From IMG/VR virus record IMGVR_UViG_3300045988_135019: a stretch of DNA of 64,000 nucleotides, one strand, 5' to 3'. Source of the DNA: a virus. Position 1 is the stretch's first letter, and every line of letters begins with the position of its first letter. Made by a program: the position numbers and the translations under genes. The notes beneath the pieces were generated by a model that did no database searches, was not told the DNA's origin, and saw only the letters and a program-made list of their open reading frames with translations. Positions 9,001 to 58,908 of this stretch are shown here, one piece after another.

Positions 9001-9958
9001 CTATTTGTGTTTCTTCTCTAATTTCTTTTAAATATTTTTTCCATTCAGATTGAGGAATATTTTTTCTTTCTTCTAACCATGCATTATTTAGTATTAATTT
9101 TAATTCTTTTAAAGGACTATCTGAAATTATAGGCATTTTTATTTCTTTGTTTATGTTTAAATTTTCTGCCTTATCGAATATCAAAGTATTATTTAATGCT
9201 TCTTGTATTTGATTATCATTTAAAATTCCTTGTTCTTTATATCTTTTTATTATAGTATCACTATCAGGATAATCTAATATAAAATTATCTTCTTCTGGAT
9301 AATTAATTCCTTTTGCTTTTAGAAACATATTTCTATATTTACTATCTTCTGGAAAAATATAATGACTATCATTTGCGTGTATAATAGGGATATTATATTT
9401 TTGACTATATTTTAATATCATTTTGTTATAATCTGCCTGAACCTTACAAGGATGAGCCTGAACCTCTAAATAGAAATTATCTTTAAAATAATTTTTCATT
9501 TTAATAATCCATTCATCTCTATTTTGTTCTTCCCTTAATCTTCCAGCCACACAAGCAGTTGTTACAACTATATTTTTAGGATTTACAGAAAATAAAAGTT
9601 CATCGTCTATTCTTGGTTTATAATAAAATCCAGAAATATTGCTTTCAGATAATAACCTATTTAAATCTTTATATCCATCTGTATTTAAAGCAATTAAAAC
9701 AATATGATAATTTGATTTATCTTTTTCTTTTCTATTTGGAACATAATATGCTTCCATTCCAGAGACAACTTTTAAACCATATTTTTCAGCTAATGTTAAA
9801 GCTTCATAGATATTCCCATTATAACCATGTTCTGTTGTAAAATATATTTTATGTCCTAACTCCTGAGCTCTTTTCATATAGTCTTCTGGTTTTACTACAA
9901 CATCTAAAGTAGTTATATTAGAATAATGAGAATGTTTATGATAATTTTCATATCTCAC
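6020..9958 (-). CDS. dnaE: DNA polymerase III alpha-type replicative polymerase (PHP domain), interrupted by an intein
   Basis: N-terminal PHP motif YHKHSHYS...TEHG. Conserved FN(K)SH..AY motif reads ARYSFN / intein / CSHSLAYAY. GTG start 9958 with GGAGAAATAAAG upstream. Confidence 0.9.
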   Translation of the reverse strand: MRYENYHKHSHYSNITTLDVVVKPEDYMKRAQELGHKIYFTTEHGYNGNIYEALTLAEKYGLKVVSGMEAYYVPNRKEKDKSNYHIVLIALNTDGYKDLNRLLSESNISGFYYKPRIDDELLFSVNPKNIVVTTACVAGRLREEQNRDEWIIKMKNYFKDNFYLEVQAHPCKVQADYNKMILKYSQKYNIPIIHANDSHYIFPEDSKYRNMFLKAKGINYPEEDNFILDYPDSDTIIKRYKEQGILNDNQIQEALNNTLIFDKAENLNINKEIKMPIISDSPLKELKLILNNAWLEERKNIPQSEWKKYLKEIREETQIVEDTNMAEYFLLNYYIIKNSVEKYNGVITKTGRGSAPSFYINKLLGFTNIDRISAPITLFPSRFMSKTRILESHSLPDIDFNCANTQPFYDASKELLGEDGCWWMLAYKPLQISSGFRLWCKANGLNINEYNDIAIDLAELSKVKKSYTESKYYENEKWKNLIDDSQHFVGVIESIAQHPCSTLLMDKKISEEVGLVKAGDVICANITSYESDNYKYLKNDLLTVSVWALINDTCKLAGIKTPSIAELTEKLDDKTWDIYANGLTATINQVDSDYATGLVKRYKPRSVAEMSAFVAILRPGCASLLQDFIDRKPYTTGIEKLDELLIDGSHRMIYQELIMKYLIWLGVPEDNSYGIIKKIAKKKFKEKELVELKNNLLEGWKKQVGTENHFEESWQIVEDAARYSFNCLAGDTKIQRLGQKRNVFYPTLEEMYLIKNDYEYAKRTNHLSLYKKYNSQGYGNALSMFDDNRIHKNKIVNIYFTGKQKIYRVKTSSGCYVDCTLNHSFPTPLGKKKLQELAIGDELYIKGLYEKHPDTYRFTDGNFEKNIPKKGEKGFQVKENGEYHKFKVIYMKNIQNKNSCVICNKTFDGSKFELHHKDHDRTNNDETNLMWLCNNCHKKIHYKNGRKKVMEKGIPTKIEKIVSIEYLREDRVYDIEMENPAHNFISESGLVVSNCSHSLAYAYDSLYGAYLKSHYPLEYYTVTLNSYEGDFARTNNLTQELNYFKIKLSSPKFRYSFGKYTCDKRTNTIYKSISSIKGLSKTVGDKLYLLKDKQYPTFLDLLIDCKENSIGIADITTLIKLDYFAEFGNIGKLLHFMDIYNELYGKKTLKKDKEYSVKKLYLKEYCSKETDKQYSGFDSYKCLSDLINKLPNEDISLKDKIQYQLQYFGYIDIKDSKENNLMWYVVDINDKGKSKWIDLYRINNGENKKVKIKNSIFDNKPFEIGRILNIPSFEREGKWTLDRETEKWERSTTQFDDFIVNYIVMGEDYGSS
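6977..7780 (-). mobile_element. intein (268 aa) with embedded HNH endonuclease in Pol III alpha
   Basis: Starts CLAGDTKI (Cys codon 7780..7778) and ends GLVVSN (Asn codon 6979..6977), followed by +1 Cys. Internal CVICNKTF..HHKDHDRTNN..NLMWLCNNCHKKIH. Confidence 0.85.
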
Positions 9959-18924: not shown

Positions 18925-19941
18925 TTATTTTTCCTTTCTAAAACAATATTTATCTAATAATAATTCAAAATTTTCTTTACCATAATCACTAGGAGAACCT
19001 TTACTTCCCTTTGGAATTACTTTGTTTTCATTGTCAAATAGGCAATATATTTCCTTACTATTATTAAATATTCCACCCTTTAATTTATCGCATTGTGTTA
19101 ATAAATGTTCTATATTTATTCCTTCATCTAATGCAAGTATAACTTTATTTACAGGCAATGATTTTATTATTCTAGCTTGAGTATCAGTAATATTACAGTT
19201 TCCAAGAGCTAAAGCATTATGATAACCATAACTATCAAGCTGCATCACAAATTTTTCACTTTCTCCAATTATAACACAATCACTCTCTTCAATTCCTTTT
19301 TTATTTTCATATATTCCATAAAGGAAATTTCCTTTAGAAAAATTTTCTATAGCTTTCCATTTTGGATTGTTCCCTAAATCATTAAAATTATATCTACCAG
19401 TAATTCCTACTAAATTACCTTTTTTGTCAAACCAAGGAACAATTATTCGATTAGTCATAGGGTCATATTTAATATTAAATTTGAATTGAGTTTCTAAAGA
19501 AATATTATCTTTCAAAAATCTTGTATTAGGATAGTCAATGTATTTGTCTAATGTTTCTTTAGGATATATATAATTTTCATTTTTCTTTTTGCTTCTACAT
19601 TTTTTATATAATCCATTAAAAATAATTGGTAAAGAAAGATTTTTTAAATCTTTAATATTCAAAATACTCATAATAGTATTTATGGTTTGACATAAACTCC
19701 AATTATTATGAATGGCTATTAAATTAATTAGTGTTCCCCCAATACCTTTACTGAATACATATGCTTGTAAAGTATCACAATTTATCCATACAGAAGTTGG
19801 ATTTCCACCTTCATAATATGCACATCTGATTTCATTCTTTCCATTAGAAAAAGAGATAGAGTGAAAATCAGTTAATTCTAATATTTTAATTATATCTTCT
19901 GGTCTGTTTCTAAGATATTCATTTAATATTTCAACTGACAT
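18925..19941 (-). CDS. DNA primase (TOPRIM domain)
   Basis: CVIIGESEKFVMQLDSYGYHNALALG...VILALDEG. Sits immediately upstream of the helicase. Confidence 0.65.
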   Translation of the reverse strand: MSVEILNEYLRNRPEDIIKILELTDFHSISFSNGKNEIRCAYYEGGNPTSVWINCDTLQAYVFSKGIGGTLINLIAIHNNWSLCQTINTIMSILNIKDLKNLSLPIIFNGLYKKCRSKKKNENYIYPKETLDKYIDYPNTRFLKDNISLETQFKFNIKYDPMTNRIIVPWFDKKGNLVGITGRYNFNDLGNNPKWKAIENFSKGNFLYGIYENKKGIEESDCVIIGESEKFVMQLDSYGYHNALALGNCNITDTQARIIKSLPVNKVILALDEGINIEHLLTQCDKLKGGIFNNSKEIYCLFDNENKVIPKGSKGSPSDYGKENFELLLDKYCFRKEK

Positions 19942-19955
19942 TCCCCTATCTCCTT

Positions 19956-21422
19956 CTATATTTTATTTTCTTCTCCTACTTTACAATTTCCAATCTCTTT
20001 CCATTTATTTACATTTGGAATAAATTCATATAATATAGTTTGCCCATTTTCTCCATTTCTACTTTTGACATGAAAGAAAATTTTATAAAATTTCCCTTCT
20101 TGCCATACTATTGGGAAAGGAACTTTTTCTGAGCTTCTACCTTGACCATCTACTGTATTTGAAGTAGCTTCCAAATCTTTTTCACATGAAGTATATTCAT
20201 CACTCCAAATATCTCTAAACATAAAAATTTCTTCATATATCTCTGAGATTTGTTTACTGTTAGAAAGTACACTTTCATTTAGCCATCTAACTTTGCCTTT
20301 AGTAGATAATGATAATTGTACAGGAGTAATAACTGCTACATTTTCTTTTGAAGCTATTTGAAATAGTTCTTTACTATCATTTAAAAATGATTGCCATACT
20401 GTATCCGTGGTAGCATCAACTTTAAATGTATCATATACAAATAAATCAAAATCTTGTTTTGCAAGTTTTTTTATTGTTCTTTTAATATTTTTCATTCCAT
20501 AGTCATAAACTCTTTGAAAGAGAATATTTTCAAGATAATCTTCTTTAACAATTTTATCTGCTTTTTTAAAAGCTTCTTCATCTTGTTTAGTAAAATTTAA
20601 ATTCTTTAATTTTCTTCTATCTATATTCCAATAATCTAACCTACTGGTTAATACATGTATATAAAGTAAATCTTTGAATATGATAGCATCTTGTTCATTG
20701 CTTATGATACAAATTTTTGTGCCTTGTTCTGCAAGTGGTATAACTATATTTTCAAATACAAAACTGGTTTTACCACCATTTGTATAACTAGCAAACATTG
20801 TCAATCCTTTTCTAGGTATTCCATTTGAAGAATAATTAAGTAAAGGACTATACTTACCAAATTGCAAACCTATACCTTGACCAGTCTTTTTAAATTCAAT
20901 ATCTTTGTCTGTCATATTTAAAGATTGCAATTGCTTATCATGTGTAAGATTTAATGCTAATGTATTAAGTTGAAAATCGAAAAAATCAATAACTTCATCT
21001 GGTGTATTTAAATCATTTAATTTTTTAATATTACTATCTACATCAAATCCTTTATCTTTTAGTTTAATTAGTAAGTTGTTTTTTAATAGAGCATTATAAT
21101 AAGCTTCTGTATTTTCTGGTTCTAATAGACTTATTGCTTCTTCTATTGATTTCCATCCACCACGATTTTCATATTCTGCTTTTAAGTTTGGAAAATCTTC
21201 TAAAAAGGTACTAATTGATATTTCATCAAAGTTCTTAAAACCTTTTTTTGCCATATTATAACCTAGATTGTAATAAAATTTTCCATCTGAAGAAAATAAA
21301 TCCTTATCTGGGTCTATAGGGAAGTCATCAAAAAGCTCTAATGGATTAGTATATAATGATAAAACAAAATTACCTTCAAGTGGAATACGGTTTTTCAATA
21401 AGTTAGTTTCATTTCTTCCCAT
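19956..21422 (-). CDS. dnaB: replicative DNA helicase, DnaB-like
   Basis: Walker A SYTNGGKTSF, Walker B-like FDLFVYDTF, and a DnaB-type N-terminal domain. Confidence 0.75.
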   Translation of the reverse strand: MGRNETNLLKNRIPLEGNFVLSLYTNPLELFDDFPIDPDKDLFSSDGKFYYNLGYNMAKKGFKNFDEISISTFLEDFPNLKAEYENRGGWKSIEEAISLLEPENTEAYYNALLKNNLLIKLKDKGFDVDSNIKKLNDLNTPDEVIDFFDFQLNTLALNLTHDKQLQSLNMTDKDIEFKKTGQGIGLQFGKYSPLLNYSSNGIPRKGLTMFASYTNGGKTSFVFENIVIPLAEQGTKICIISNEQDAIIFKDLLYIHVLTSRLDYWNIDRRKLKNLNFTKQDEEAFKKADKIVKEDYLENILFQRVYDYGMKNIKRTIKKLAKQDFDLFVYDTFKVDATTDTVWQSFLNDSKELFQIASKENVAVITPVQLSLSTKGKVRWLNESVLSNSKQISEIYEEIFMFRDIWSDEYTSCEKDLEATSNTVDGQGRSSEKVPFPIVWQEGKFYKIFFHVKSRNGENGQTILYEFIPNVNKWKEIGNCKVGEENKI

Positions 21423-26459: not shown

Positions 26460-27350
26460 TTAATTTAATTTAGAAACAGAATAACTGTCTAATATTTTGT
26501 TTGCTCTTTCTTCTTCATCTCTAATATATATTTGAGTAGTAGAAATACTAGCATGACCTAATACATCTTTTATTCCATTTATATCTACACCTTGATTATA
26601 TAATGCTGTAGCTATACTTCTTCTAAGACTATGGGCAGAAATATTTTTATTTATTCCAGCTCTTTTAGTAATTTTTTTTACTGTTCTATGAATACTTTCA
26701 GGCATCATTGGTGTACCTTTGTCTGATATAAATATATTATTATAAATAGATTGTTTTCTAGCATTATCTATATAATCTTTTATAGCTTCAAAAGTTTCTT
26801 TATTTAATACCATCTTTTGTATTTTATTACCTTTTCTTCTAACATTTATAAAATATGCTTCCTTATTTGTTTCAGGAATTACTACTTTATAACAATCTGA
26901 CAATTGTAAACTTATAACTTCGCTAATTCTAAGACCTGTATTAAGAAATAAAGTAAACATTGCTATTTCTCTTTTTGATTTACAATTATCCAAGAATATT
27001 CTTTGTTCTTCTGGTGTTAAAAATGTTCTCTTTGATGGATTTTTTTGTGGTTTTAATTTTTTTAATACATACATAGCTGGATTATTATTAATATTATATT
27101 TTCTATCTTCCATTAAATAAATATAAAAACTATTTAATGCTTGACATTTTGGTTTAATTGAGTTATCAAGATTATTTTTTTCATTTCTTAAATAATTTAC
27201 CCAATCAATAATATCACTAATTCCTAATTCTCCTAATTTATTTACATTTTCTATATGTGAATAAGTTAAAAAATCTTCTATCCAAGTTCTATAATTTTTC
27301 TTTGTTTTCTCTGAACTTAAAGAGTTAATAAATAAATCTAATTCTTTCAT
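26460..27350 (-). CDS. tyrosine recombinase/integrase (XerC/D-like)
   Basis: HSLRRSIATALYNQG...LGHASISTTQIYI. Start at ATG 27350 (MKELDLF) with GGAGAGG upstream. Confidence 0.85.
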   Translation of the reverse strand: MKELDLFINSLSSEKTKKNYRTWIEDFLTYSHIENVNKLGELGISDIIDWVNYLRNEKNNLDNSIKPKCQALNSFYIYLMEDRKYNINNNPAMYVLKKLKPQKNPSKRTFLTPEEQRIFLDNCKSKREIAMFTLFLNTGLRISEVISLQLSDCYKVVIPETNKEAYFINVRRKGNKIQKMVLNKETFEAIKDYIDNARKQSIYNNIFISDKGTPMMPESIHRTVKKITKRAGINKNISAHSLRRSIATALYNQGVDINGIKDVLGHASISTTQIYIRDEEERANKILDSYSVSKLN

Positions 27351-27380
27351 AATAACCTCTCCTTTTTCTATTATGTACTT

Positions 27381-27409
27381 ATTATAGCACACTTCTTATA
27401 AAAAGTCAA
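27381..27409 (-). promoter_or_regulatory. sigma-70-type promoter (TTGACT-17-TATAAT)
   Basis: Minus strand: TTGACT 27409..27404, TATAAT 27386..27381. Confidence 0.65.
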
Positions 27410-31681: not shown

Positions 31682-32395
31682 TTATAAAAATCTTTCTATA
31701 TATTCTCTTTCTTGTGTAAATATTGGTATTTCTTTATCTATAATCCATTTCCCATTTTCTTTTATTACACATATCCCTCTTTTAAATGTAGCAGGAAAAT
31801 CATTAAAATTAATTTCTTTTTCCTGAAATAACATTTCTTGTATTTGATTACAAGTTTTTCCTTGTAATTGATTGTGTGAAAAATTTGATTGTCCTACTAA
31901 TTGAATAGCATTTCTAGTAGCATCTTGTTGTCTCCAAATAAAATAATTGCATACTTCTTCTTTGGGTAAATTGAAAGCTCTACTATCAAATAATGCTTTC
32001 ATAGTTTTTTCTTCCCAAATGGTATCTTCCCCACATAATGCTAACAATAAAAGATTTTTATTAAATTCTAATGTGGCAATACTAGCTGTGACCGATATTA
32101 TTTTAGATAAATTGTTTTGAAACCAAGCTTGTGTATCTATATTTTCCCAATCTGTAATCAATAAAGATATTTCATCTGACTGAGTATATCCCATTTTGCA
32201 GCCATCAACTTCTTTGCATAATTTTAAAGTTGTATCTTGCATTAGCCTCATTAGTTGCTTATCATAAGGTTTTTCAAGTCCTTTTGTAAAAGTATGGAAA
32301 GCTTTTCCGTCTATTCTAACTATAACTGGAGTTTTACAAGTTAGATAATTTCTTGTAACAAACTCATATCTTTTCATTCTTTCTCCTAAATTCAT
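31682..32395 (-). CDS. thg1: Thg1-like protein (tRNA-His guanylyltransferase family, 3'-5' nucleotidyl transferase)
   Basis: MKRYE...VIVRIDGKAFHTFTKGLEKPYD...GYTQSDEISLL matches the Thg1 family N-terminal catalytic core as I remember it. Confidence 0.8.
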   Translation of the reverse strand: MNLGERMKRYEFVTRNYLTCKTPVIVRIDGKAFHTFTKGLEKPYDKQLMRLMQDTTLKLCKEVDGCKMGYTQSDEISLLITDWENIDTQAWFQNNLSKIISVTASIATLEFNKNLLLLALCGEDTIWEEKTMKALFDSRAFNLPKEEVCNYFIWRQQDATRNAIQLVGQSNFSHNQLQGKTCNQIQEMLFQEKEINFNDFPATFKRGICVIKENGKWIIDKEIPIFTQEREYIERFL

Positions 32396-37207: not shown

Positions 37208-37301
37208 CGTGATTTTTTAGTTTTCTTGTTACGTTTTCGCTCTTCTTCTCCCAAATCGTGGGCAATTTTTGACTTTCCTTGTTACGTGTTGGCTCTTTCC
37301 C
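37208..37301. repeat. two tandem ~45-nt imperfect direct repeats (period 49)
   Basis: 37208..37252 and 37257..37301 share CGTG..TTTTT.G.TTTC(C)TTGTTACGT.TT.GCTCTT..C.CCC. Confidence 0.7.
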
Positions 37302-37317
37302 TGCTAACATTGTTACC

Positions 37318-37405
37318 AAACTAATGTTTGTATTGTATATTTCTATCAAAACAATTGTTTTACAAACTAGTGTTTTTTATATATATTAGTTGCAAACTTA
37401 TGTTT
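37318..37405. promoter_or_regulatory. array of four 12-bp palindromes AAAC-N4-GTTT (candidate operators)
   Basis: Copies at 37318..37329 (TAAT core), 37349..37360 (AATT), 37364..37375 (TAGT) and 37394..37405 (TTAT). Confidence 0.6.
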
Positions 37406-37700
37406 TGTTTTGTTTATATATCTTTTTTTTTGGGTATTTTTTCAATTGCCTTTAGTTATCAATATTTTAGTTTGTGCCGTGTTTTTTATTTTCAAAGTAT
37501 AATATCATTGTTTTATTTTTTTTGTTGCTTATAAGCTAAAATATAAAGCCGTATTTTCGCCACTAAGCAATTTTTTTTGACAAGTAGTGTTATTATATGT
37601 TTAAATATAAAGAAGCGGCACAAGTCTTTTATTCAATTTTCAAGGTACTTTATTTTTTTTATTTTCTTATATAAAATACAAGTTTTTTTTGTACCTTATA

Positions 37701-37748
37701 TAAAACAATAAAAAACACCACAAAAATTTTATTTTTTTTGTAGTGTTT
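37701..37748 (-). terminator. intrinsic terminator downstream of ORF 37793..38086
   Basis: 14-bp stem 37713..37726 / 37735..37748 with one mismatch, followed on the minus strand by a U-rich tract. Confidence 0.55.
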
Positions 37749-37792
37749 AAAATATCATTATTTTTTTATAAAGTATTTTAACATCAACTTTT

Positions 37793-38086
37793 TTATAGTT
37801 TTATTTCAAAAATATTTTTATTTTCTTCTACCGTTTTTTTGAATTCTTTAAATGTTTTGTAATTGTAATTAGTGTAGTTATTTATGAATCTTTTTAATTC
37901 TTTCAATGTTGTTTGTGAATAATTCCAAATAATTTTATTGTTTAAAATGTTGTTATTAAGATATAATTTTTTTGTGTTTATATCATATCTAGCAATAGTG
38001 CTGTTATAATTTTGTAATTGGTACAAGTTGTCAAAACATAAAATACAAGTATTTTTTTTATTTTCTAATATTTTTATTTTATTCAT
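37793..38086 (-). CDS. hypothetical protein
   Basis: Track ORF overlapping its upstream partner by 8 nt. Confidence 0.5.
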   Translation of the reverse strand: MNKIKILENKKNTCILCFDNLYQLQNYNSTIARYDINTKKLYLNNNILNNKIIWNYSQTTLKELKRFINNYTNYNYKTFKEFKKTVEENKNIFEIKL

Positions 38087-38417
38087 TGTTTAACACCTCA
38101 TTTATAAAATTTTCTAAAAGTTCATTAAGCGTTTGTTTTTGTTCGTTATAACTTATATTTTTATTTATGATTTTTTTTGCTTCTTCTTCGTATTTGTCTA
38201 CTATTTTATAATTTTCAATATTGCCATAAGGTCTATAACCAGTGCAAATAGCTGTTTTATGGTCTATTTGGTAGATGTCAGCGTTCCAACCATACACGCC
38301 CGCCGTGAAAAATGTGGGATTTTTAAAACGTAATAAATATTGCAAATCATCATAACCCACTTTTATTATATTTTTATAATTGTTTTGTATTTGTTTTTTT
38401 GTTGTTTTAATTTTCAT
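38079..38417 (-). CDS. hypothetical protein
   Basis: Track ORF. GYDDLQYLL...AGVYGWNADIY looks like a conserved family that I cannot name. Confidence 0.55.
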   Translation of the reverse strand: MKIKTTKKQIQNNYKNIIKVGYDDLQYLLRFKNPTFFTAGVYGWNADIYQIDHKTAICTGYRPYGNIENYKIVDKYEEEAKKIINKNISYNEQKQTLNELLENFINEVLNNE

Positions 38418-38480
38418 TTTTTTCTACCTCCATATTTTTTTAATATTTTAATATATTTCTATTTATATGTAAAATTTTTT

Positions 38481-38603
38481 CTAAAATACCAATAAAATTA
38501 AAATTATATCAATATAAACTAAAGATATACCTAACAACATTTTTATTAAAAATATTGTAATATTTTTAATTAGTATTCTTTTTTGTTTTTTTGTTAGTTC
38601 CAT
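38481..38603 (-). CDS. small hydrophobic peptide (40 aa)
   Basis: Below the track cut-off. ATG 38603 after AAAGGGAGGTG. MELTKKQKRILIKNITIFLIKMLLGISLVYIDIILILLVF. Confidence 0.45.
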   Translation of the reverse strand: MELTKKQKRILIKNITIFLIKMLLGISLVYIDIILILLVF

Positions 38604-38695
38604 ATTTTTGACACCTCCCTTTATTTATATTATATGTAAATTTTTGTAAAATATTCTTTTTTTGTTGGAATATTTTTTTGTTATTCTCTACGCTC

Positions 38696-38724
38696 ATTAT
38701 ATACATAATTTTTATAAAATGCAA
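38696..38724 (-). promoter_or_regulatory. sigma-70-type promoter (TTGCAT-17-TATAAT) with a ~85-nt leader
   Basis: Minus strand: TTGCAT 38724..38719, TATAAT 38701..38696. Confidence 0.55.
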
Positions 38725-38803
38725 GTGTTTTTTGAAAATGTAATAAAATTGTAACATTGTGCTGTATTTTTTATATCTACTTTTAATACTATTATTTTTG
38801 TTC

Positions 38804-39244
38804 TTATGTAAACTTGTGCGAACTGTATCTATTGTATTTTATAGTGAATATATTATGTAAACTTACATAACTTGCATATTATATTAAAATTTTATATTAT
38901 TTGTTTATTGTTTATATATTATGTTAACTTAATAGGTTGTTTAGCTGCTTACGTTATGTAAACAATGAGAAAAAAAATAAGATAGGGAACTAATGTTTTT
39001 TTGTTTTTTATTCCTTTAATTTTAAAAGTTAGTTACCCTTTAAAATTAATCAAAAAATTTTTTTGGATAAAATTTTAAAATATAAAATAGTAACATATTA
39101 TGTAAACTATTTTAAAATATTGTCAAAAAAGCAATATTTTCAAAAAAATGTCAATATAATAAACATTATATTGATAACATTCCCTAGGGTACTACAAAGT
39201 TATGTAAACTAAAGGGAGGTTATTTATCAACTTTTTATGTAAAT
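38804..39244 (+). repeat. seven dispersed direct copies of TTATGTAAAC (two are one-mismatch variants)
   Basis: Copies start at 38804, 38853, 38919 (TTATGTTAAC), 38954, 39098, 39200 and 39235 (TTATGTAAAT). The copy at 38853 is part of the palindrome ATGTAA-AC-TTACAT. Confidence 0.75.
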
Positions 39245-39835
39245 TATTTTAAAAAACACCCCTTAGCTCATCCACTCCCACGATAAAAAAACAAAAACTC
39301 GAATAACTCTACTCTCTCATAGCTTTCCAACAACAAAAATAACAATTTTTACCAATTCGTTAAAATAAAACATTAAATTAACTCTAACCCAGTATTATCA
39401 ACCACTTCAAGGATTGTACGACATATTAATTAGTTGAAAATAGGAAAACAAAGTCAATAAAAATAGTAAATAAAAAATCTGAGAATTTCTTGAAATATAG
39501 GCAAAATTTGATAAAATAGCTGCGAAATTCGCAGATATTCGTAAAAATATGTAAATATTTCCAAGAAGGATAAAATTGATAAAGGGTGGGCTAATTAAAA
39601 AAAAGGGAGAAGAATTATTTCCAGTAAAGGTAAAATAAGAAGTACAACCAATGCCAACTAATTCTTCTTGAAAAGGTACGGGAAGGGGGGAGTAGGTAAA
39701 AAACTGAGAGTAGGATAAAAATGGGGGAAGGGTGTAACGCCTACCCCCATATAAGAAAATAATAAAAAACAATCATTGGAGAAAAAAGTTAGATAAAAAA
39801 AGGTTAAGAATAAAATTCAAATTTTTTTTCTCTTT

Positions 39836-39872
39836 ATATATTATTTATATATTATTTATATATTTATATATA
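39836..39872. repeat. pure A/T tract with tandem 11-mers ATATATTATTT (DNA-unwinding-element-like)
   Basis: 39836..39846 and 39847..39857 are identical, followed by a partial copy. Located immediately upstream of the iterons. Confidence 0.6.
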
Positions 39873-39933
39873 GGAAAAATTCGAGACTGGGAGACATACT
39901 CTCCCAATGGATACCAGTGTTGTCTTTTTGAAA

Positions 39934-40075
39934 CTATAGGCTTTTTTGTACATCGACTGTAGGCTTTTTTGTACACCCACTATAGGCTTTTTTGTACACC
40001 CACTATAGGCTTTTTTGTACACTTTTTAAAAAAATCTGACAAAAAAGTTTGAAAACCATAGGCTTTTTTGTACAC
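39934..40075 (+). repeat. five iterons C(T/C)(A/G)TAGGCTTTTTTGTACA; four in tandem at an exact 23-bp period plus one next to the promoter
   Basis: Copies at 39934..39952, 39957..39975, 39980..39998, 40003..40021 and 40057..40075. Confidence 0.85.
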
Positions 40076-40101
40076 TTTTTTAAGAAATTTTAAAAAAAGT
40101 A

Positions 40102-40130
40102 TTGACATTGGAAAGGAAATATGTTATACT
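40102..40130 (+). promoter_or_regulatory. sigma-70-type promoter (TTGACA-17-TATACT) with an upstream A-tract
   Basis: TTGACA 40102..40107, TATACT 40125..40130. Shares AAAAAAAGTATTGACAT with the promoter at 43093. Confidence 0.7.
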
Positions 40131-40165
40131 TAATATAATGAATAAAAGAAGTAGGTGATTGAAGT

Positions 40166-40750
40166 GTGAGCAGGGACAGAAAAATGGTAATGTTCCCAAG
40201 TAGTAAAGAATTCATAGAGAACAAGAAAATATCAGATAGAACATATGCATGGTGTTTGTTAAATGGTTCATATAATGAAAGTGGTATATATATAGATAAG
40301 AATTATAACAGTGGAGCAAGAGATTTGGGAATAGACAGAAGAACATTCAAGAAAAGACTACAAATTCTTATTGAAAATGGGTATATTGAAGAAAGAGAAA
40401 ACTGTTATGTAATACCTAGAAAAGAGCTTCAATATAAAAGATATATATATAGAGACATAGCTGAAGGATTATATAATTCTGGAATGGAGAACATTATAAA
40501 ATTATTTATTGTTTTAAGTACTTATCATGACAGATATAAAGGAAATCAAAATGAAGATTTTTCATATAGATTATTATTAAAAAGGATAGGGCTTCCATAT
40601 GAGAATAATGATAAGAAAGAAAACAATAAGATTAAGAATATGTTAGATAAATTAGTTGAGCTTGGTTTATTAGAATATGAAAGAAGTCCAAGATATAATT
40701 CAGACAACTTTGGAGCAAAACAATTTGTAGTAACAAGAATAGGAGATTAA
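40166..40750 (+). CDS. two-winged-helix DNA-binding protein (candidate iteron-binding Rep/regulator)
   Basis: GTG 40166 after AGGTGA. Two wHTH-like segments: LGIDRRTFKKRLQILIENGYIEE and IKNMLDKLVELGLLEYE. Confidence 0.5.
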   Translation: MSRDRKMVMFPSSKEFIENKKISDRTYAWCLLNGSYNESGIYIDKNYNSGARDLGIDRRTFKKRLQILIENGYIEERENCYVIPRKELQYKRYIYRDIAEGLYNSGMENIIKLFIVLSTYHDRYKGNQNEDFSYRLLLKRIGLPYENNDKKENNKIKNMLDKLVELGLLEYERSPRYNSDNFGAKQFVVTRIGD

Positions 40751-40751
40751 A

Positions 40752-40988
40752 ATGTGTTATTATTGTAGAGAAGGATATGACATATTAGACAAAGAAAAAG
40801 AGAAGCTGGTGTTTATGGGTAGAGAGCTACCAGTGAAAATATCTGATTTTTCAGGAAAAGAATATGAAAAATTAAAATGTATGTTATATAGAAAAGAAGA
40901 CAATAGAGTTGTATTATCAATGAGTGATTATAAAGGTTGTCAATATATAGAGATTAATTATTGTCCAATGTGTGGAAGGAAGGTTTAG
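40752..40988 (+). CDS. hypothetical zinc-ribbon protein
   Basis: MCYYCREG...CPMCGRK. Confidence 0.6.
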   Translation: MCYYCREGYDILDKEKEKLVFMGRELPVKISDFSGKEYEKLKCMLYRKEDNRVVLSMSDYKGCQYIEINYCPMCGRKV

Positions 40989-40989
40989 A

Positions 40990-41157
40990 ATGGAAAAATT
41001 GTTTAATAAGATAGAAGAATGGGAAAATTACAATGAAGAAATTTACAATGACAAAGAAAAATATATGATTATACCATTATCGGAATATAATGAATTAAAA
41101 GATAAAGAAATCAAATTTAAGGAACTAATAAAATATATAAAGGAGAATGTTATATGA
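40990..41157 (+). CDS. hypothetical protein
   Basis: ATG 40990 after GGAAGGAAGG. Confidence 0.5.
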   Translation: MEKLFNKIEEWENYNEEIYNDKEKYMIIPLSEYNELKDKEIKFKELIKYIKENVI

Positions 41158-43568: not shown

Positions 43569-43733
43569 ATGTGTGAAGTTGGAATTAATAAGGGTTGTAA
43601 GAATTGTCCTTATCTATATAATGAAGAGTTTTGTCTAATGGAAGATACTTATATAGATAATAATAGGGAAGTTATAGAAATGGAGATTGAAAATGAAACA
43701 ATTAAAATTAATAGAGTTTATAAAAGACCATAA
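43569..43733 (+). CDS. small Cys-containing hypothetical protein
   Basis: ATG 43569 (MCEVGINKGCKNCPY). Confidence 0.45.
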   Translation: MCEVGINKGCKNCPYLYNEEFCLMEDTYIDNNREVIEMEIENETIKINRVYKRP

Positions 43734-54920: not shown

Positions 54921-55990
54921 TGGCAACAACTACTGGAAGTAGAAAAAGAAAAAGAAAAAATAAGAAAAATACTGATATTGTTCAATGTAGTGCTTGTGGA
55001 AAATTTAAAGCCAAGACAGAGTTTTTTATAAGTTATAATGAAATGCATGCTGCTAATGGAGTTTTGCCATATTGTAAAACTTGTATAAGAAGTATGTGTA
55101 CGGATGCAAATGGAGAAATTAGCAGACCTAAAACTTTACAAATGTTAAGAACTATAGATAGACCTTATATTGAAGAATTATGGATTAAAGCAATTAACAG
55201 AGAAAGTAAAAATAAAATAGGAAATTATTTAAGGTTAATCAATTTACAACAATATAGATGTCTTAAATGGAAAGATGGAGATTTAGATGTTTTAGAAAGA
55301 CCATTAGATATTAAACCTACTTTAACAGATTTAAATAAAGTAGAACCAATAAAGACAGAAATAGAAAAATTCAAGGATTTTAAAGTTAATGATGAAATTA
55401 TAAGATTATTTGGAAATGGATTTACAGATGAAGAATATTTTCATATGTGGAATAAATATAATTTCTTAAAAGCATATTATCCTGAACAGACAAGTATGCA
55501 TACAGAAGCCTTGATAACTTATGTTAGATATAAGGTTAAAGAAGAAATGGCTGTTGCTAATGATAGGTCTACTGATGCTAAGACATGGGGAGAGTTAGCT
55601 ATGAAACAAGCTGAAAGGGCTAAAATAAATCCCAACCAATTTAGCAAAGCAGATTTACAAGGTGGTCTTAGTACAATAGGAGAAATTGCTCAAGCTGTTG
55701 AACAAGAACAAGATATAATAAAGATATTACCAAAATTCAGATTTAGACCAAATGATGCGGTAGATTTCTGTATTTGGAACTATATAAATTATGCAAGAGA
55801 ACTTGAAGGGAAACCAACTGTAGAATACAGTGATGTTTATAAATTTTATGATAAAATGAAAGAAAGTTATATGGCTGAAACTGGTGATAGTTATGGAATA
55901 TTTAAAGATGACCCAACTGAAGAGAACAGACCAAAAATAGAAAAATTCATTGAACTTCCTGAAGAATATAATGAGGAGGGTCAAGAATAA
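54920..55990 (+). CDS. putative terminase small subunit / DNA-binding zinc-ribbon protein
   Basis: Basic N-terminus RKRKRKNKK, CSACGK...CKTC. Position immediately upstream of terL. Confidence 0.35.
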   Translation: MATTTGSRKRKRKNKKNTDIVQCSACGKFKAKTEFFISYNEMHAANGVLPYCKTCIRSMCTDANGEISRPKTLQMLRTIDRPYIEELWIKAINRESKNKIGNYLRLINLQQYRCLKWKDGDLDVLERPLDIKPTLTDLNKVEPIKTEIEKFKDFKVNDEIIRLFGNGFTDEEYFHMWNKYNFLKAYYPEQTSMHTEALITYVRYKVKEEMAVANDRSTDAKTWGELAMKQAERAKINPNQFSKADLQGGLSTIGEIAQAVEQEQDIIKILPKFRFRPNDAVDFCIWNYINYARELEGKPTVEYSDVYKFYDKMKESYMAETGDSYGIFKDDPTEENRPKIEKFIELPEEYNEEGQE

Positions 55991-58908
55991 TGGCATATAT
56001 TAAGAATTTTGAAAAGCCAGAAACAAAACACCAGAGAATGTCTCAAGTGCCAACTTCAAATTATGACCCTTGGGATAATCCAACTGTAAAACCTTCAAGT
56101 AAAAATCAAAATGATTTTTTTCATGAGCATATAAAACAATATTCTGATTTGATAGCATGGATGAGATGGTTCCCGGATTTGTTTTTAGACTTACTTAAAC
56201 CAGAGACAGGTGGAATAAATTTACATTTTGACCAAAGAGTGTTTTTAAGGTGTATATGTAGATTTTATAGTATATATGGAGTATTCCCTAGAGGTTGGGG
56301 AAAATGTGTGAGTGGAGACACCTATCTATTTACAAATAATGGAATGGTTAAAATAAAGGATTTTTTTAATTGTGAAGAAAATGGGATAGAAGATTACACT
56401 TCAAAATTAGATTTAAGAATAGTTAATAAAAATAATATTCATGAAGAAGTAGACCGTGGTGTATATAATGGTTATAAAGATACTAAAAAAATAAAAACTA
56501 ATTATGGATTTGAATTAGAATGTAGTAATAATCACCCTATTTTAGTTGAAAAATCTACAGGTGAAATAGATTATATTTTAGCCAGTGATTTAAAAATAGG
56601 AGATAATGTTTTAATTTCTACCAAAAATAATATTTGGGGAAATAAAACAAACTTAAATATAGATAAAAGTAAAATAAGAGGAAAAAAGGAAATAAACTTG
56701 CCTACAGAATTAACTGAGGAATTGGCTTTAATTATAGGTTATATAATAGGTGATGGCTGTGTTTCTCGTAAAGATAAATTAATTTTTTCTAACATAGATA
56801 AAGATATATTAGAAAATTATTCTAAATATATTAATAAATTGGGTTTAGTTTTAAAGAAAGAAAATAAGTGTGATTATGTTTGCTATGGATTAGGAATAAG
56901 AGATTTATTTTATCAATTAGGGTTTGATTATATTAAATCTGACAAGAAAAAGATACCTGATTGTATAATGAGAGCTCCTAAAAACATTGTAAGAAAGACA
57001 CTACAAGGAATTTTTGATACTGATGGTTATGTAGAAACAGGGGGAAATAAAATAGGAATAACAAGTAAGTCTAAAGATTTAATTGAACAAATACATTTGT
57101 TGCTATTAAACTTTGGAATTATAAGTAGTGTAAAGAGCATCGTAGATAAAAAATATAATCATACTTTTTATGTTTTGAGAATTTATGGTCAAAATATAGA
57201 CAAGTTTAATCAAGAAGTAGGATTTAGTTGCAACAGAAAACAGGAAATTTTAAATAAGATATGTGGTGGTTTGAGATTAGTCAATTCAAATAAATATAAA
57301 GAAAATTATTTTTTAGATAACATAGTAAATATAGAAAATGGCAAATCTCATGTTTATGATATTAGTGTACCAGATACTCATTCTTTTGTATCTAATGGTT
57401 TTATAAGTCATAATACTTGGGGTGAAGTAATTTCTATGTTTATAATTGCTATTTTATATCCAGGAATTACTATGTCTTTGACTGCACAAACAAAAGCCAA
57501 TGCTGCAGAATTATTGAAAGATAAATATGATGAAATAACGAGACAATTTCCATTACTAAAGAATGAAATGTATAAACCTAGGGTAGCAAAAGATGATTTT
57601 GAATTGAATTTTGTTAATGGTTCTAGGATAGATGTATTAGCAAATGCACAGACAAGTAAAGGACAAAGAAGAAATAGAATACAAATAGAAGAAAGTGCTT
57701 TAGTAGATGCTGAAACATTTGATGATGCATTAAAACCAATTGTTGAAATTGGAAGAACCACAAAAGGTAAGTTAGGAATTATTGACCCATTAGAATTAAA
57801 TCAACAAATAAACTTCTTTACTACGAGCGGATTTAGAGGTAGCGATGAGTGGCAAAGAAGCGTGCAAATGTATAGAGATATGTTGGACTGTAAAGGAGAA
57901 ATAGTCCTTGGTTCAGGATGGATGCTTGCTTGTTGGATGGGTAGAGGTTCACGTAAAGACCAGATAATAAAAAAGAAAAAACAGATGAGTTCTGTATCTT
58001 TTGCAAGAAACTATGAAGAAAAATGGGTAGGAGCTGTGGACAATCAATTAGTAGACATAAAGAGTTTGCTAAAAACTAGAAATTTAACAGAACCTATTTT
58101 AAACAATCCAGATGGCAAAAGAGAAATAGTATTGGGTGTCGATGTTGCAAGGTCTGCAAATCAAAATAATAACAAAACTATTATTAGTGTATTGGAAATT
58201 CACCATGCAAATAATGGTTTAATTAAGCAATTAGACCTTGGAAATATGTTTTTAGTAACAAATCAATTAAACTTCACTGCACAAGCTTGTTTTGTAAAAC
58301 AAGTTCAAGCTCAATATAAAGCTAAATGTGTAGTAGTTGATACTAATGGTTTAGGAAAAGGTTTATTAGATGAATTATTAAAACCAAATGTAGATGTCCA
58401 AACAGGAGAAACATATCCAGCTTGGGATACTGTCAATGGAGATATTAAATCAGAGTATAGAGAAGCTGAAGAATTAGTATTTGCATTAAATTCTCAAGAG
58501 AGAGATAGTAAAACAGGTGGAAGGATAAATAATAGTGTTATAGTAAATTTTATTGGTTGCGTTGAAGGTTTAAAGTTGAGATTGTTAGAAGAAAGAAAAG
58601 ATAATGAATTTGATGTAACTGATATAAATGAATATATGAAATTTGCTCCTTATGAACAGACTAATGCATTAGTTGAAGAAATTGCTAATTTAAAAATAAA
58701 ACATTTGACTAATGGAGAAGTTACTGTAGAAAGAGTTTTAAATAAAATAGATAAAGATAGGTATTCTAGTCTAGCTTATGCTATATGGTGGGCTATGACT
58801 TATGATAATACATTAGAAGTAGATAATAAGGATTTGGTAATGACTATTGCTAATATGAATAGAATAGCTTCTGGCAATATGGGAACATTATCAAGTATAT
58901 TTCAATAA
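55990..58908 (+). CDS. terL: terminase large subunit, interrupted by an intein
   Basis: Walker A FPRGWGK / intein / TWGEV. Downstream RIQIEESALVD and nuclease-type VLGVDVARS. Confidence 0.85.
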   Translation: MAYIKNFEKPETKHQRMSQVPTSNYDPWDNPTVKPSSKNQNDFFHEHIKQYSDLIAWMRWFPDLFLDLLKPETGGINLHFDQRVFLRCICRFYSIYGVFPRGWGKCVSGDTYLFTNNGMVKIKDFFNCEENGIEDYTSKLDLRIVNKNNIHEEVDRGVYNGYKDTKKIKTNYGFELECSNNHPILVEKSTGEIDYILASDLKIGDNVLISTKNNIWGNKTNLNIDKSKIRGKKEINLPTELTEELALIIGYIIGDGCVSRKDKLIFSNIDKDILENYSKYINKLGLVLKKENKCDYVCYGLGIRDLFYQLGFDYIKSDKKKIPDCIMRAPKNIVRKTLQGIFDTDGYVETGGNKIGITSKSKDLIEQIHLLLLNFGIISSVKSIVDKKYNHTFYVLRIYGQNIDKFNQEVGFSCNRKQEILNKICGGLRLVNSNKYKENYFLDNIVNIENGKSHVYDISVPDTHSFVSNGFISHNTWGEVISMFIIAILYPGITMSLTAQTKANAAELLKDKYDEITRQFPLLKNEMYKPRVAKDDFELNFVNGSRIDVLANAQTSKGQRRNRIQIEESALVDAETFDDALKPIVEIGRTTKGKLGIIDPLELNQQINFFTTSGFRGSDEWQRSVQMYRDMLDCKGEIVLGSGWMLACWMGRGSRKDQIIKKKKQMSSVSFARNYEEKWVGAVDNQLVDIKSLLKTRNLTEPILNNPDGKREIVLGVDVARSANQNNNKTIISVLEIHHANNGLIKQLDLGNMFLVTNQLNFTAQACFVKQVQAQYKAKCVVVDTNGLGKGLLDELLKPNVDVQTGETYPAWDTVNGDIKSEYREAEELVFALNSQERDSKTGGRINNSVIVNFIGCVEGLKLRLLEERKDNEFDVTDINEYMKFAPYEQTNALVEEIANLKIKHLTNGEVTVERVLNKIDKDRYSSLAYAIWWAMTYDNTLEVDNKDLVMTIANMNRIASGNMGTLSSIFQ
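56305..57414 (+). mobile_element. intein (370 aa) with a LAGLIDADG homing endonuclease in the TerL P-loop
   Basis: Starts CVSGDTYLF (TGT 56305) and ends NGFISHN (AAT 57412..57414), followed by +1 Thr. LALIIGYIIGDGCV and LQGIFDTDGYV. Confidence 0.85.

What the first reader, a model, noticed from the sequence alone, without database searches (positions are those of the whole stretch)
39831..40750. Origin-like module: AT-rich 11-mers, four 23-bp-phased iterons plus one at the promoter, then a two-winged-helix protein gene
**Seen in the sequence.**
- A pure A/T tract with tandem ATATATTATTT lies at 39836..39872.
- A 7-bp-stem hairpin lies at 39888..39906.
- Four copies of CTATAGGCTTTTTTGTACA start at 39934, 39957, 39980 and 40003, an exact 23-bp period.
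- A fifth copy at 40057..40075 lies 26 bp upstream of the -35 of promoter 40102..40130.
- That promoter drives a 194-aa protein with two wHTH-like segments.

**Established knowledge.** This is the layout of iteron-controlled replicons (DUE, iterons, autoregulated Rep with WH1-WH2).

**Inference.** This is a replication origin or a plasmid-like maintenance origin of the phage. Alternatively it is a cooperative operator array for the rightward early operon.
Basis: partly seen in the sequence, partly recalled or inferred. Interest (0 to 1): 0.65.

Follow-up and report, generated by a model that had tools for sequence, protein, structure and literature searches.

The report
Phage iteron array with two-winged-helix protein
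A large gut phage carries, where its two gene arms diverge, an AT-only tract, five copies of a 20-bp site and a gene for a small two-domain DNA-binding protein that has co-evolved with those sites; this is probably the phage's replication origin and initiator, but that has not been shown directly.

Summary
Four copies of ACT(A/G)TAGGCTTTTTTGTACA lie at an exact 23-bp period (39933-40022), with a fifth at 40055-40074. That is 5 hits against 0.02 expected, and none elsewhere in 64 kb. A 40-bp AT-only tract with an 11-bp unit lies upstream. A near-consensus sigma-70 promoter and a 194-aa gene lie downstream.

AlphaFold gives a confident tandem winged-helix fold. The only solved structures that match both domains are RepE54-iteron complexes, and that match is weak (TM 0.5).

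The same layout recurs in every close relative and in two distant ones, with quite different repeat sequences. A near-identical sister phage differs at the same three positions in all five repeats and at 8 of 9 changed residues in the second domain's DNA-reading parts. So the protein almost certainly binds the repeats.

An origin-plus-initiator reading is the best fit (about 0.55): it explains the AT repeats, the phasing, the site at the strand switch and the lack of any other initiator. No evidence bears on replication directly. A transcription-control array is the main rival (about 0.25). The protein is not in Pfam Rep_3. I rate it a new variant of a known kind, of moderate interest.

The parts
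39833..39872 (.). A/T-only tract made of an 11-bp unit (TTTATATATTA, 3.7 copies); candidate DNA-unwinding element
   Evidence: TRF. It is the longest A/T-only run in the window, but length alone is not significant. It is invariant in window, L009 and L001. Relatives have analogous short AT-rich tandems beside their repeat arrays: 9-mers in L011, L014-16 and L018, an ATATAACA x5 block in L025, and 16-18-mers in L030.
39873..39890 (.). Conserved block GGAAAAATTCGAGACTGG flanking the AT tract; role unknown
   Evidence: It is invariant in window, L009 and L001, although the L001 protein is only 69% identical and the neighbouring spacer has diverged.
39888..39906 (.). 7-bp-stem hairpin (tGGGAGA-catac-TCTCCCa)
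   Evidence: It is weak (z about -1.7). L001 has a different small hairpin (AAGCT-tag-AGCTT) at the same place. It is absent in L011, L015 and L018, so it is probably not essential.
39933..40022 (+). Four head-to-tail 20-bp repeats ACT(A/G)TAGGCTTTTTTGTACA with 3-bp spacers, exact 23-bp period (iterons)
   Evidence: All copies changed in concert in relatives.
40055..40074 (+). Fifth, separated repeat copy (ACCATAGGCTTTTTTGTACA), 53 bp from copy 4 and 27 bp upstream of the -35
   Evidence: L009 has a copy at the same position, and L001 has one 43 bp from copy 4. It carries the same lineage-specific substitutions as the tandem copies.
40102..40130 (+). Near-consensus sigma-70-type promoter TTGACA-17-TATACT with extended -10 TG
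   Evidence: The sequence TTGACAtt..aATATGTTATAaT is conserved across all clades while the repeats vary.
40153..40158 (+). Ribosome-binding site AGGTGA, 7 nt before the GTG start
   Evidence: Read from the sequence. Equivalent GGTG motifs precede GTG/TTG starts in relatives.
40166..40750 (+). Gene for a 194-aa tandem winged-helix protein (WH1 about residues 7-95, WH2 about 96-192); candidate repeat-binding initiator
   Evidence: - The AF2 model has pLDDT 89.
- RepE54-iteron complexes are the only two-domain PDB matches, TMq 0.48-0.50.
- Pfam gives only sub-threshold generic wHTH hits.
- The family has 177 representatives.
- 8 of 9 differences from P0001 lie in the WH2 recognition helix or wing.

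Best explanation
This is an iteron-type replication origin with its cognate origin-binding protein. It belongs to a roughly 100-120 kb, 26% G+C gut phage that is distantly SPbeta-like and encodes a YonO-type RNA polymerase.

**Proposed mechanism**
1. Host RNA polymerase fires the strong promoter at 40102-40130 early. This step is inferred from the consensus match.
2. The first product is the 194-aa tandem winged-helix protein. It binds as monomers, one per 20-bp repeat. WH2 reads the variable left and middle part of the repeat (positions 4 and 9-10), and WH1 reads the constant TGTACA end. Binding is strongly inferred from co-variation; the domain assignment is a weaker inference.
3. Four protomers at a 23-bp phase, plus the fifth copy, form a nucleoprotein complex that destabilises the adjacent A/T-only 11-mer tract at 39833-39872. 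This step is inferred by analogy.
4. The phage's own DnaB-like helicase, primase and Pol III alpha (genes at 19956-21422, 18925-19941 and 6020-9958) are then loaded, and forks leave in both directions, co-oriented with the two divergent gene arms. This step is also inferred.

Occupancy of the promoter-proximal copy may additionally tune the protein's own promoter. That part is untested, and the geometry does not suggest it.
For: **The array**
- It is unique in the window and highly non-random.
- Periods of 21-23 bp, about two helical turns, and 4-6 copies are the canonical iteron format. That the format is canonical is established knowledge (review PMC4980987).

**The protein**
- It is a confident tandem-WH fold.
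- Among 350,542 PDB chains, only the RepE54-iteron complexes superpose on both domains, at TMq 0.48-0.50. Every other hit in the 50 rows shown has TMq of 0.29 or less.
- Viral structure hits include a protein named 'Replication initiator protein'.
- Family members give sub-threshold or weak hits to phage initiator profiles. These are phrog_186 (DnaD-like), and phrog_428, 678, 8102 and 270 (replication initiation / O-like).

**The protein reads the repeats**
- The window and L009 differ by 0-4 mismatches per 100 bp over most of 12 kb.
- They differ at the same three positions in all five repeats, plus the spacers.
- They also differ by 12 nucleotides in 40600-40700, which gives 9 amino-acid changes. 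Seven fall at residues 146-161 (the loop and N-terminal half of the WH2 recognition helix) and one at residue 180 in the WH2 wing.

**Architecture is conserved while sequence is not**
- The order is short AT-rich tandem, then 4-9 phased repeats, then the same promoter, then the gene.
- It is found in L009, L001, L011, L014-16, L018 and L030. Arrays truncated by contig ends are seen in L003, L010, L012, L013 and L020.
- A 27%-identical relative (L025) has about 7 direct repeats, an AT-rich ATATAACA x5 block and two inverted repeat pairs next to the gene. This is the classical combination of iterons plus a dimer operator.
- A regulator-only model does not explain why a short AT-rich tandem is always retained beside the array.

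**Position and context**
- The module sits in a 1.4-kb non-coding junction from which all genes diverge, at the cumulative GC-skew minimum.
- The phage encodes a DnaB-type helicase, a primase and Pol III alpha, which need an origin opener. No other initiator-like protein was found among the window proteins scanned.
Against: - There is no direct replication evidence of any kind.
- The GC-skew switch coincides with the switch in gene orientation, so it is not independent evidence.
- The RepE match is weak (E 0.08-0.16, TM 0.5). Pfam Rep_3 is not hit. The wider family also supplies DNA-binding domains to GIY-YIG and HNH nucleases, so the fold does not diagnose function.
- The protein is small, with no visible helicase-recruiting domain.
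- No DnaA boxes are nearby.
- Repeat orientation relative to the AT tract and the gene appears inverted between the window clade and the second clade and L025. This comes from sequence inspection, and it is unusual if geometry matters for melting.
- In L005 the AT tandem is missing and nuclease-like genes lie upstream.
- The closest cultured relative, Thomasclavelia phage TR-TP1, has the same two-arm genome but no such array.
Confidence: 0.55

Rival explanations
1. The module is a transcription-control array only. The tandem-WH protein is an early regulator, Cro-like or activator-like. It binds cooperatively to the upstream repeats to tune the main rightward early promoter, and perhaps leftward transcription, with no role in replication.
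For: - The gene is the first one behind the strongest rightward promoter.
- In the second clade the last repeat ends only 13-14 bp upstream of the -35.
- In L025 inverted repeat pairs sit just before the gene.
- All significant Pfam and NCBIfam similarities are to wHTH transcription factors.
- Co-variation of sites and recognition helix is equally typical of repressor-operator (immunity) pairs.
Against: - No copy overlaps the -35/-10 core.
- In the window the four-copy array lies about 80-170 bp upstream of the -35.
- The sites are head-to-tail monomer-type repeats at iteron spacing, not palindromes.
- The conserved short AT-rich tandem beside the array is unexplained.
- The promoter sequence is constant while the repeats change, so there is no promoter-embedded operator.
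Confidence: 0.25
2. The module is a centromere-like or DNA-organising site. The repeats are a partition or condensation site bound by a ParR/TubR/ScpB-like winged-helix adaptor, serving maintenance of a plasmid prophage.
For: - Tandem repeats upstream of the binding protein's own operon are typical of parC/tubC-type centromeres (established knowledge).
- 62 of 100 family members match phrog_3396, which is labelled 'ScpB'.
- A phage sharing the YonO-like polymerase, Clostridium phage c-st, was hit. That it is a plasmid prophage is from my own knowledge.
- Weak TubR sequence hits appear in the PDB search.
Against: - No ParA, ParM or TubZ-type NTPase is in the operon or among the window proteins scanned.
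- Pfam's ScpB model is not among the 25 of 41 families listed for the 100 members scanned, and no ScpB structure appears among the fold-search hits shown.
- The window protein itself does not hit phrog_3396.
- No related sequence was found in 185,579 representative genomes, as plasmid or prophage.
Confidence: 0.07
3. The module is a packaging (pac) recognition site. The repeats mark where headful packaging starts, by analogy with SPbeta, whose genome opening point lies in the intergenic region upstream of the yonP-yonO operon.
For: - The SPbeta opening point lies between yonR and yonP (preprint 10.1101/2021.11.22.469490).
- Here the YonO-like gene lies 7.6 kb downstream in the same arm.
- Many contigs end in or near the array.
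Against: - Contig ends fall inside exact repeats in short-k assemblies, and other assemblies read straight through (L009, L011, L015, L016). The ends are therefore assembly breaks.
- The protein is the first early gene, 15 kb from the terminase (55990-58908). Small terminases are normally encoded next to the large subunit.
- A monomer-type tandem-WH fold is not a small-terminase fold.
Confidence: 0.04

Closest known systems
Iteron plasmids of the RepA/RepE/pi type (pPS10 oriV-repA, mini-F ori2-repE, R6K), with WH1-WH2 initiators (Pfam Rep_3)
   Same: - Both have 4-5 direct repeats of about 20 bp at a period of about 22 bp, beside an AT-rich region with short repeats, and the initiator gene is adjacent.
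- Both have a tandem winged-helix protein. RepE54 bound to its iteron is the only two-domain structural match.
- A distant relative (L025) also has inverted repeat pairs next to the gene, like the Rep dimer operators.
- The general features of this class are taken from review PMC4980987 and from my own knowledge.
   Different: - There is no sequence membership in Rep_3.
- The protein is shorter: 194 aa against roughly 230-330 aa.
- There are no DnaA boxes.
- No inverted half-iteron overlaps the promoter in the window.
- The host element is a phage of about 100 kb or more with its own helicase, primase and Pol III alpha, not a small plasmid that relies on the host replisome.
Phage origins with iterons: lambda O/ori-lambda, P1 RepA/oriR, SPP1 G38P/oriL, staphylococcal phage and SaPI origins
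   Same: - Each has an origin-binding protein whose specificity co-varies with repeated sites, with an AT-rich region next to the repeats.
- In P1, five 19-bp iterons lie just upstream of repA.
- These comparisons rest on my own knowledge. The lambdoid O-iteron literature appears in the listing.
   Different: - In lambda, SPP1 and the staphylococcal phages the repeats lie inside the initiator gene. Here they lie upstream, outside any gene.
- There is no significant sequence similarity to O, G38P or DnaD-like proteins, only sub-threshold PHROG hits.
SPbeta MrpR-SPBRE repressor system
   Same: It belongs to the same broad kind of phage: a YonO-type RNA polymerase, Pol III alpha and a tyrosine-recombinase-like gene are all present in the window. 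It also uses repeated DNA elements in control regions (PMC10516654).
   Different: SPBRE is a single 15-bp motif dispersed over about 10 promoters and bound by a recombinase-fold repressor. Here five copies cluster at one locus only, and their partner is a tandem-WH protein.
PHROG 3396 ('segregation and condensation complex subunit ScpB' label)
   Same: Close homologue P0009 (42% identical) and 62 of 100 family members match this profile over both WH domains.
   Different: The window protein itself does not reach E 0.1. No match to Pfam's ScpB family or to ScpB structures was seen in the rows shown. The label is probably a fold-level annotation rather than a tested function.

Membership tests
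Iteron-type replication origin (functional class) | Three or more direct repeats of 17-23 bp at a phase of about two helical turns | tested here: met
   There are four copies at exactly 23 bp plus a fifth. Relatives have 21-24 bp periods.
Iteron-type replication origin (functional class) | An adjacent AT-rich unwinding element containing short repeats | tested here: met
   This is met at the sequence level only. A 40-bp A/T-only tract with an 11-bp unit is present, and analogous tandems are conserved in relatives. Actual melting cannot be tested here.
Iteron-type replication origin (functional class) | A cognate initiator encoded nearby that binds the repeats | tested here: inconclusive
   The gene is adjacent. 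Binding is inferred from concerted change of all repeats together with the WH2 recognition helix. There is no biochemical test.
Iteron-type replication origin (functional class) | The fragment supports initiation of replication | not testable with these tools
   This needs cloning or marker-frequency data. The GC-skew minimum at 38-40 kb is confounded by gene orientation.
Rep_3 / RepA-RepE-pi initiators (Pfam PF01051) | Sequence match to the family profile | tested here: not met
   There is no PF01051 hit for the window protein. It is not among the 25 of 41 families listed for the 100 family members, and no RepE, RepA or pi chain appears among the 60 of 103 PDB sequence matches shown.
Rep_3 / RepA-RepE-pi initiators (Pfam PF01051) | A tandem WH1-WH2 fold with both recognition helices available for one repeat | tested here: met
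   The AF2 model has pLDDT 89. RepE54-DNA chains 7sgc_C, 9yzc_C and 9yzm_C are the only two-domain matches, at TMq 0.48-0.50, but with weak E-values of 0.08-0.16.
Rep_3 / RepA-RepE-pi initiators (Pfam PF01051) | An inverted half-iteron operator overlapping the rep promoter (autorepression by dimers) | tested here: not met
   No repeat-like sequence lies within 40076-40165, and the promoter is constant while the repeats vary. Inverted pairs exist only in the distant relative L025.
ScpB (SMC complex subunit) | Match to the ScpB sequence family or structure, with an ScpA/SMC partner | tested here: not met
   The only link is a PHROG label carried by relatives. No Pfam ScpB hit and no ScpB fold hit appear in the rows shown. 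No ScpA- or SMC-like gene was seen.
DnaD-like / phage replisome organiser / O-like initiators | Significant match to the family profiles | tested here: inconclusive
   The window protein hits phrog_186 at E 4e-3 and phrog_270 at 0.03. Between 7 and 14 of 100 members hit each initiator PHROG. DnaD_N and Phage_rep_org_N are hit by one member each.
Repressor-operator (Cro/CI-type) | Palindromic operators overlapping the core promoter | tested here: not met
   The repeats are direct, not palindromic, and all lie upstream of the -35.
Plasmid centromere with adaptor (ParR/TubR type) | A partner NTPase (ParA, ParM or TubZ) in the operon | tested here: not met
   The operon genes and the larger window ORFs that were scanned show none. 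About 46 kb of the genome lies outside the window.

The most novel reading that the evidence does not exclude
A previously uncharacterised family of compact (about 190 aa) tandem winged-helix proteins acts as the replication initiator and defines the origin of a whole clade of roughly 100-140 kb gut Firmicutes phages. Origin specificity is switched by coordinated replacement of all iterons and of the WH2 recognition helix, even between genomes that are otherwise about 99.5% identical. That would be incompatibility-type replicon diversification operating in large phages.
Probability: 0.45. Interest if true: 0.6.

Novelty: new variant of a known kind. Interest (0 to 1): 0.45.

Why it matters
- I found no paper describing a replication origin for SPbeta-like or YonO-polymerase phages or their uncultured gut relatives. 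The SPbeta papers I read discuss packaging and repression, not an origin.
- This module gives a concrete, clonable candidate origin and initiator for a widespread gut phage clade.
- It offers a natural specificity-swap pair. The window and L009 differ by three base changes per repeat and eight residues in one helix and wing, which makes the DNA-recognition code directly testable.
- It attaches a likely function to part of a protein family of about 177 clusters that Pfam does not cover.
- If it turns out to be a regulator instead, it is still the key switch of the main early promoter.

Tried and rejected
- **DNA similarity.** A search of 38700-41000 against 50,697 phage records found nothing. 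tblastn of the protein also found nothing, even at E = 1.
- **RNA families.** Rfam on 36-42 kb gave only a chance miRNA hit.
- **DnaA boxes.** 22 hits against 22.9 expected, none near the module.
- **Representative genomes.** The scan found no relative, so neither the host nor a plasmid or prophage state could be read off.
- **Profile searches that added nothing.** The protein search with the 100-member alignment returned only the close family.
- **Physical genome ends.** The idea that contig ends upstream of the gene mark real ends was rejected. The breaks fall inside exact repeats, and other assemblies read through.
- **SPBRE analogy.** Rejected, because the repeat occurs at one locus only (compared).
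- **The hairpin as a functional element.** Its stability is not significant, and it is absent in the second clade.
- **The AT tract as significant on length alone.** Rejected.
- **The closest cultured relative.** The divergent junction of TR-TP1 was checked and has no comparable array.
- **Fusion partners of long family members.** These are only homing-endonuclease domains, which say nothing about replication.
Full report
**1. What is in the sequence**

The window is 26% G+C phage DNA. All substantial ORFs from 1 to about 38.7 kb are on the minus strand, and all from 40166 onward are on the plus strand. The cumulative GC skew has its minimum at 38-40 kb. Between the two arms lies 1.4 kb without a convincing ORF.

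The right end of that gap contains, in order:
- a 40-bp A/T-only tract at 39833-39872, built from an 11-bp unit (3.7 copies);
- an 18-bp block, GGAAAAATTCGAGACTGG;
- a small hairpin at 39888-39906;
- four 20-bp repeats ACT(A/G)TAGGCTTTTTTGTACA at an exact 23-bp period (39933-40022);
- a fifth copy at 40055-40074;
- a promoter, TTGACA-17-TATACT with a TG extension (40102-40130);
- an AGGTGA ribosome-binding site and a GTG-initiated 194-codon ORF (40166-40750).

The repeat pattern gives 5 hits against 0.02 expected and occurs nowhere else in 64 kb. The array is the top-scoring tandem repeat of the window.

- An A/T-only run of 40 bp is reached in 25 of 200 shuffles.
- The hairpin is not significantly stable, with z = -1.7.

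**2. What kind of genome it is**

The left arm encodes:
- a Pol III alpha-type polymerase interrupted by an intein/HNH insert, a primase and a DnaB-like helicase;
- an Erf-like annealing protein and exonucleases;
- a methyltransferase;
- a tyrosine-recombinase-like protein.

The right arm encodes an RNA ligase, a polynucleotide kinase/HD protein, a dNMP kinase, a YonO/RdRP-like RNA polymerase, an intein-containing large terminase and a portal.

The portal is 39% identical to that of Thomasclavelia phages TR-TP1 and TR-TP2, and more distantly related to SPbeta-like phages. The polymerase-like protein matches Bacillus phage BUCT082, Clostridium phage c-st and Enterocloster phages. Related IMG/VR contigs are 103-122 kb. 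So this is a large siphovirus-type phage of low-G+C gut Firmicutes, distantly SPbeta-like. The host assignment is an inference.

**3. The protein**

*Sequence.* Pfam, NCBIfam and PDB sequence searches give only sub-threshold generic winged-helix hits. PHROG gives weak hits to DnaD-like loader and replication-initiation profiles.

*Structure.* AlphaFold2 with nine homologues gives a confident model (pLDDT 89, pTM 0.87) of two winged-helix domains in tandem: WH1 at about residues 7-95 and WH2 at about 96-192.
- Against the PDB, the only chains that align over both domains are three RepE54-iteron DNA complexes (TMq 0.48-0.50, E 0.08-0.16). All other hits in the rows shown cover one domain, with TMq of 0.29 or less.
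- Against viral models, the best matches are uncharacterised virome proteins (TMq 0.76). One is named 'Replication initiator protein'.

*Family.* An exhaustive profile search finds 177 cluster representatives. Of 100 of them:
- 62 match phrog_3396, which is labelled 'ScpB';
- 7-14 match each of several phage initiator PHROGs;
- Pfam reports only generic HTH families among those it lists.

Some distant members are fused to GIY-YIG or HNH nuclease domains. The fold is therefore a sequence-specific DNA-binding module, not a diagnosis of function.

**4. Comparative evidence that the protein reads the repeats**

Every relative at 37% identity or more for which enough upstream DNA was available has the same layout with different repeat sequences.

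| Locus | Protein identity | Repeats | Other features |
|---|---|---|---|
| L009 | 95% | ACTGTAGGTATTTTTGTACA, 4 at 23 bp plus 1 | |
| L001 | 69% | ACTGTATGTATTTATGTACA, 4 at 23 bp plus 1 | |
| L006 | 59% | GAAAACTGTATAAATTTTTGCAA, 5 or more, irregular spacing | |
| L011 | 43% | CGGTAAAAATACAAAGTTCTG, 4 at 21 bp | preceded by TACATATAT tandems |
| L014-16 | 37-38% | GCGAAAAAAATGCAAAGTGAT, 4 at 21 bp | preceded by 9-mer tandems |
| L018 | 42% | six 21-bp repeats | preceded by about seven 9-mers |
| L030 (more distant) | not measured | about nine 23-24-bp repeats | preceded by TATATAGGTACTAA x4 |
| L025 | 27% | about 7 direct 22-bp repeats GTACAAAAACCTATAAG | an ATATAACA x5 block and two inverted repeat pairs just before the gene |

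The L025 repeat core is the reverse complement of the window's repeat.

The promoter sequence stays nearly constant throughout.

The sharpest evidence comes from the window and L009:
- They differ by 0-4 mismatches per 100 bp over most of 12 kb.
- They differ at the same three positions in each of the five repeats, plus the spacers.
- They also differ by 12 nucleotides in 40600-40700.
- The resulting nine amino-acid changes are at residue 39, then 146, 148, 150, 151, 152, 157 and 161 (the loop and N-terminal half of the helix that precedes the WH2 wing), and 180 (the WH2 wing).

Coordinated change of all sites and of one recognition helix in otherwise identical genomes is what a cognate protein-site pair predicts.

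A weaker inference assigns the domains. The WH1 helix motif DRRT(F/V)K is shared by the lineages whose repeats end in TGTACA (window, L009, L001, L025). Lineages with other repeat ends have N/S-Y-R-T instead. This suggests that WH1 reads the constant end and WH2 the variable part.

**5. Origin or operator?**

*For an origin:*
- The spacing and copy number fit the iteron format.
- Short AT-rich tandem repeats beside the array are retained in lineages whose sequences are unrelated. A regulator model does not need them.
- The two-domain, monomer-type fold resembles RepE.
- L025 combines direct repeats with inverted pairs.
- The module sits exactly where the two gene arms diverge.
- The phage encodes a DnaB-type replisome but no other recognisable initiator among the proteins scanned.

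*Against, or neutral:*
- The skew is confounded by transcription polarity.
- No DnaA boxes are present.
- The RepE similarity is weak, and Rep_3 membership fails.
- The protein has no visible helicase-interaction domain.
- Repeat orientation relative to the AT tract and gene seems inverted between clades.
- L005 has homing-endonuclease-like genes in place of the AT tandem.
- TR-TP1 has the same two-arm layout without any array.

*Autoregulation* is plausible but unsupported. In the window no copy touches the core promoter, and the nearest ends 27 bp upstream of the -35.

*Other rivals:*
- A partition reading lacks any NTPase partner.
- A pac reading rests only on the SPbeta analogy and on contig ends that are better explained as assembly breaks in exact repeats.

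**6. Verdict**

- That the protein binds the repeats: about 0.85-0.9.
- That the module is the phage replication origin with its initiator, possibly also modulating the early promoter: about 0.55.
- Regulator only: about 0.25.
- Centromere-like: about 0.07.
- pac: about 0.04.

It works like an iteron replicon, but it is not a sequence member of Rep_3 or of any curated family. I class it as a new variant of a known kind, of moderate interest. Its value lies in giving a testable origin and initiator candidate, and a natural specificity-swap pair, for a large and uncultured gut phage clade.

Noticed in passing
window 38804-39244: A second repeat cluster lies in the same non-coding junction. There are five exact and two one-mismatch copies of TTATGTAAAC, all on the + strand, at 38804, 38853, (38919), 38954, 39098, 39200 and (39235). 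Only one other exact copy occurs in 64 kb. Its reverse complement GTTTACATAA(T) overlaps the best leftward promoter-like site at 39126..39097. The copies may be operators or leftward promoter elements. Only the two rightmost are kept in L009.
   Followed up: partly
window 39553-39636; L001 918-1012; L011 5560-5640; L015 5470-5560: A third motif family lies 250-450 bp left of the repeat array: TTTCCAG/TTCTAGAA-like palindromic cores followed by GTAAAAT, repeated 2-4 times in each lineage. Its function is unknown. It is not enriched elsewhere in the window in the form searched.
   Followed up: partly
window 39713-39750 and 39520-39534: A G-rich hairpin at 39723-39748 is stable (RNA z = -3.4) and is followed on the minus strand by AUUUUUAU, so it looks like a leftward intrinsic terminator about 85 bp left of the AT tract. 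A second minus-strand terminator-like site lies at 39534..39520. Together they hint at a short leftward transcript crossing the repeats and AT tract, or at insulation of the junction. The hairpin is not conserved in L001.
   Followed up: partly
window 37300-38900 versus L009: Between the window and the otherwise about 99.5%-identical L009, a 1.6-kb segment at the start of the left arm is replaced: small genes 37793-38417 and the leftward promoter region show 33-100 mismatches per 100 bp. This is a mosaic exchange right next to the junction.
   Followed up: no
window 6020-9958 and 55990-58908: Two essential genes carry inteins. The Pol III alpha-type polymerase has intein splicing and HNH domains, and the large terminase has an intein with a LAGLIDADG domain.
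   Followed up: no
window 26460-27392 (minus strand): A 310-aa tyrosine-recombinase-family protein is encoded here (Phage_integrase, E 1.5e-35). In SPbeta a recombinase-fold protein (MrpR) is the master repressor and binds dispersed SPBRE sites (PMC10516654). Whether this gene encodes an integrase, a dimer resolvase or a repressor is open.
   Followed up: no
window 43687-45727, 31682-32395, 47775-49451: An RNA-repair-like set is present: a T4 Rnl1-type RNA ligase, a kinase/HD protein and a Thg1-like tRNA-His guanylyltransferase. There is also a short (558 aa) YonO/RdRP-like RNA polymerase.
   Followed up: no
L002-L004, L006, L010, L012, L013, L020, L021: Many assembly contigs stop 70-290 bp upstream of the gene. 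L003, L006, L010, L012, L013 and L020 were seen to begin inside the repeat array; L002, L004 and L021 were not checked or show only the promoter. In short-k assemblies the exact 21-23-bp tandem repeats break the graph, so this module will often be missing or split in public contigs.
   Followed up: yes
L025 6600-7000: A 27%-identical relative on a 137-kb contig has a perfect TTGACA-17-TATAAT promoter upstream of the whole repeat/AT-block/inverted-pair region. There the array would be transcribed as a roughly 370-nt leader of the gene.
   Followed up: no
proteins P0041, P0046, P0130: Distant members of the tandem-WH family are fused to GIY-YIG or HNH homing-endonuclease domains. The same DNA-binding module has therefore been recruited as a nuclease targeting domain.
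   Followed up: no
L005 146-457: In one lineage the DNA just upstream of the repeats carries an ORF with an AP2-like motif typical of HNH homing endonucleases, assigned by eye and not confirmed by profile search, plus one unknown gene on the same strand. I read this as a mobile-element insertion into the junction.
   Followed up: partly
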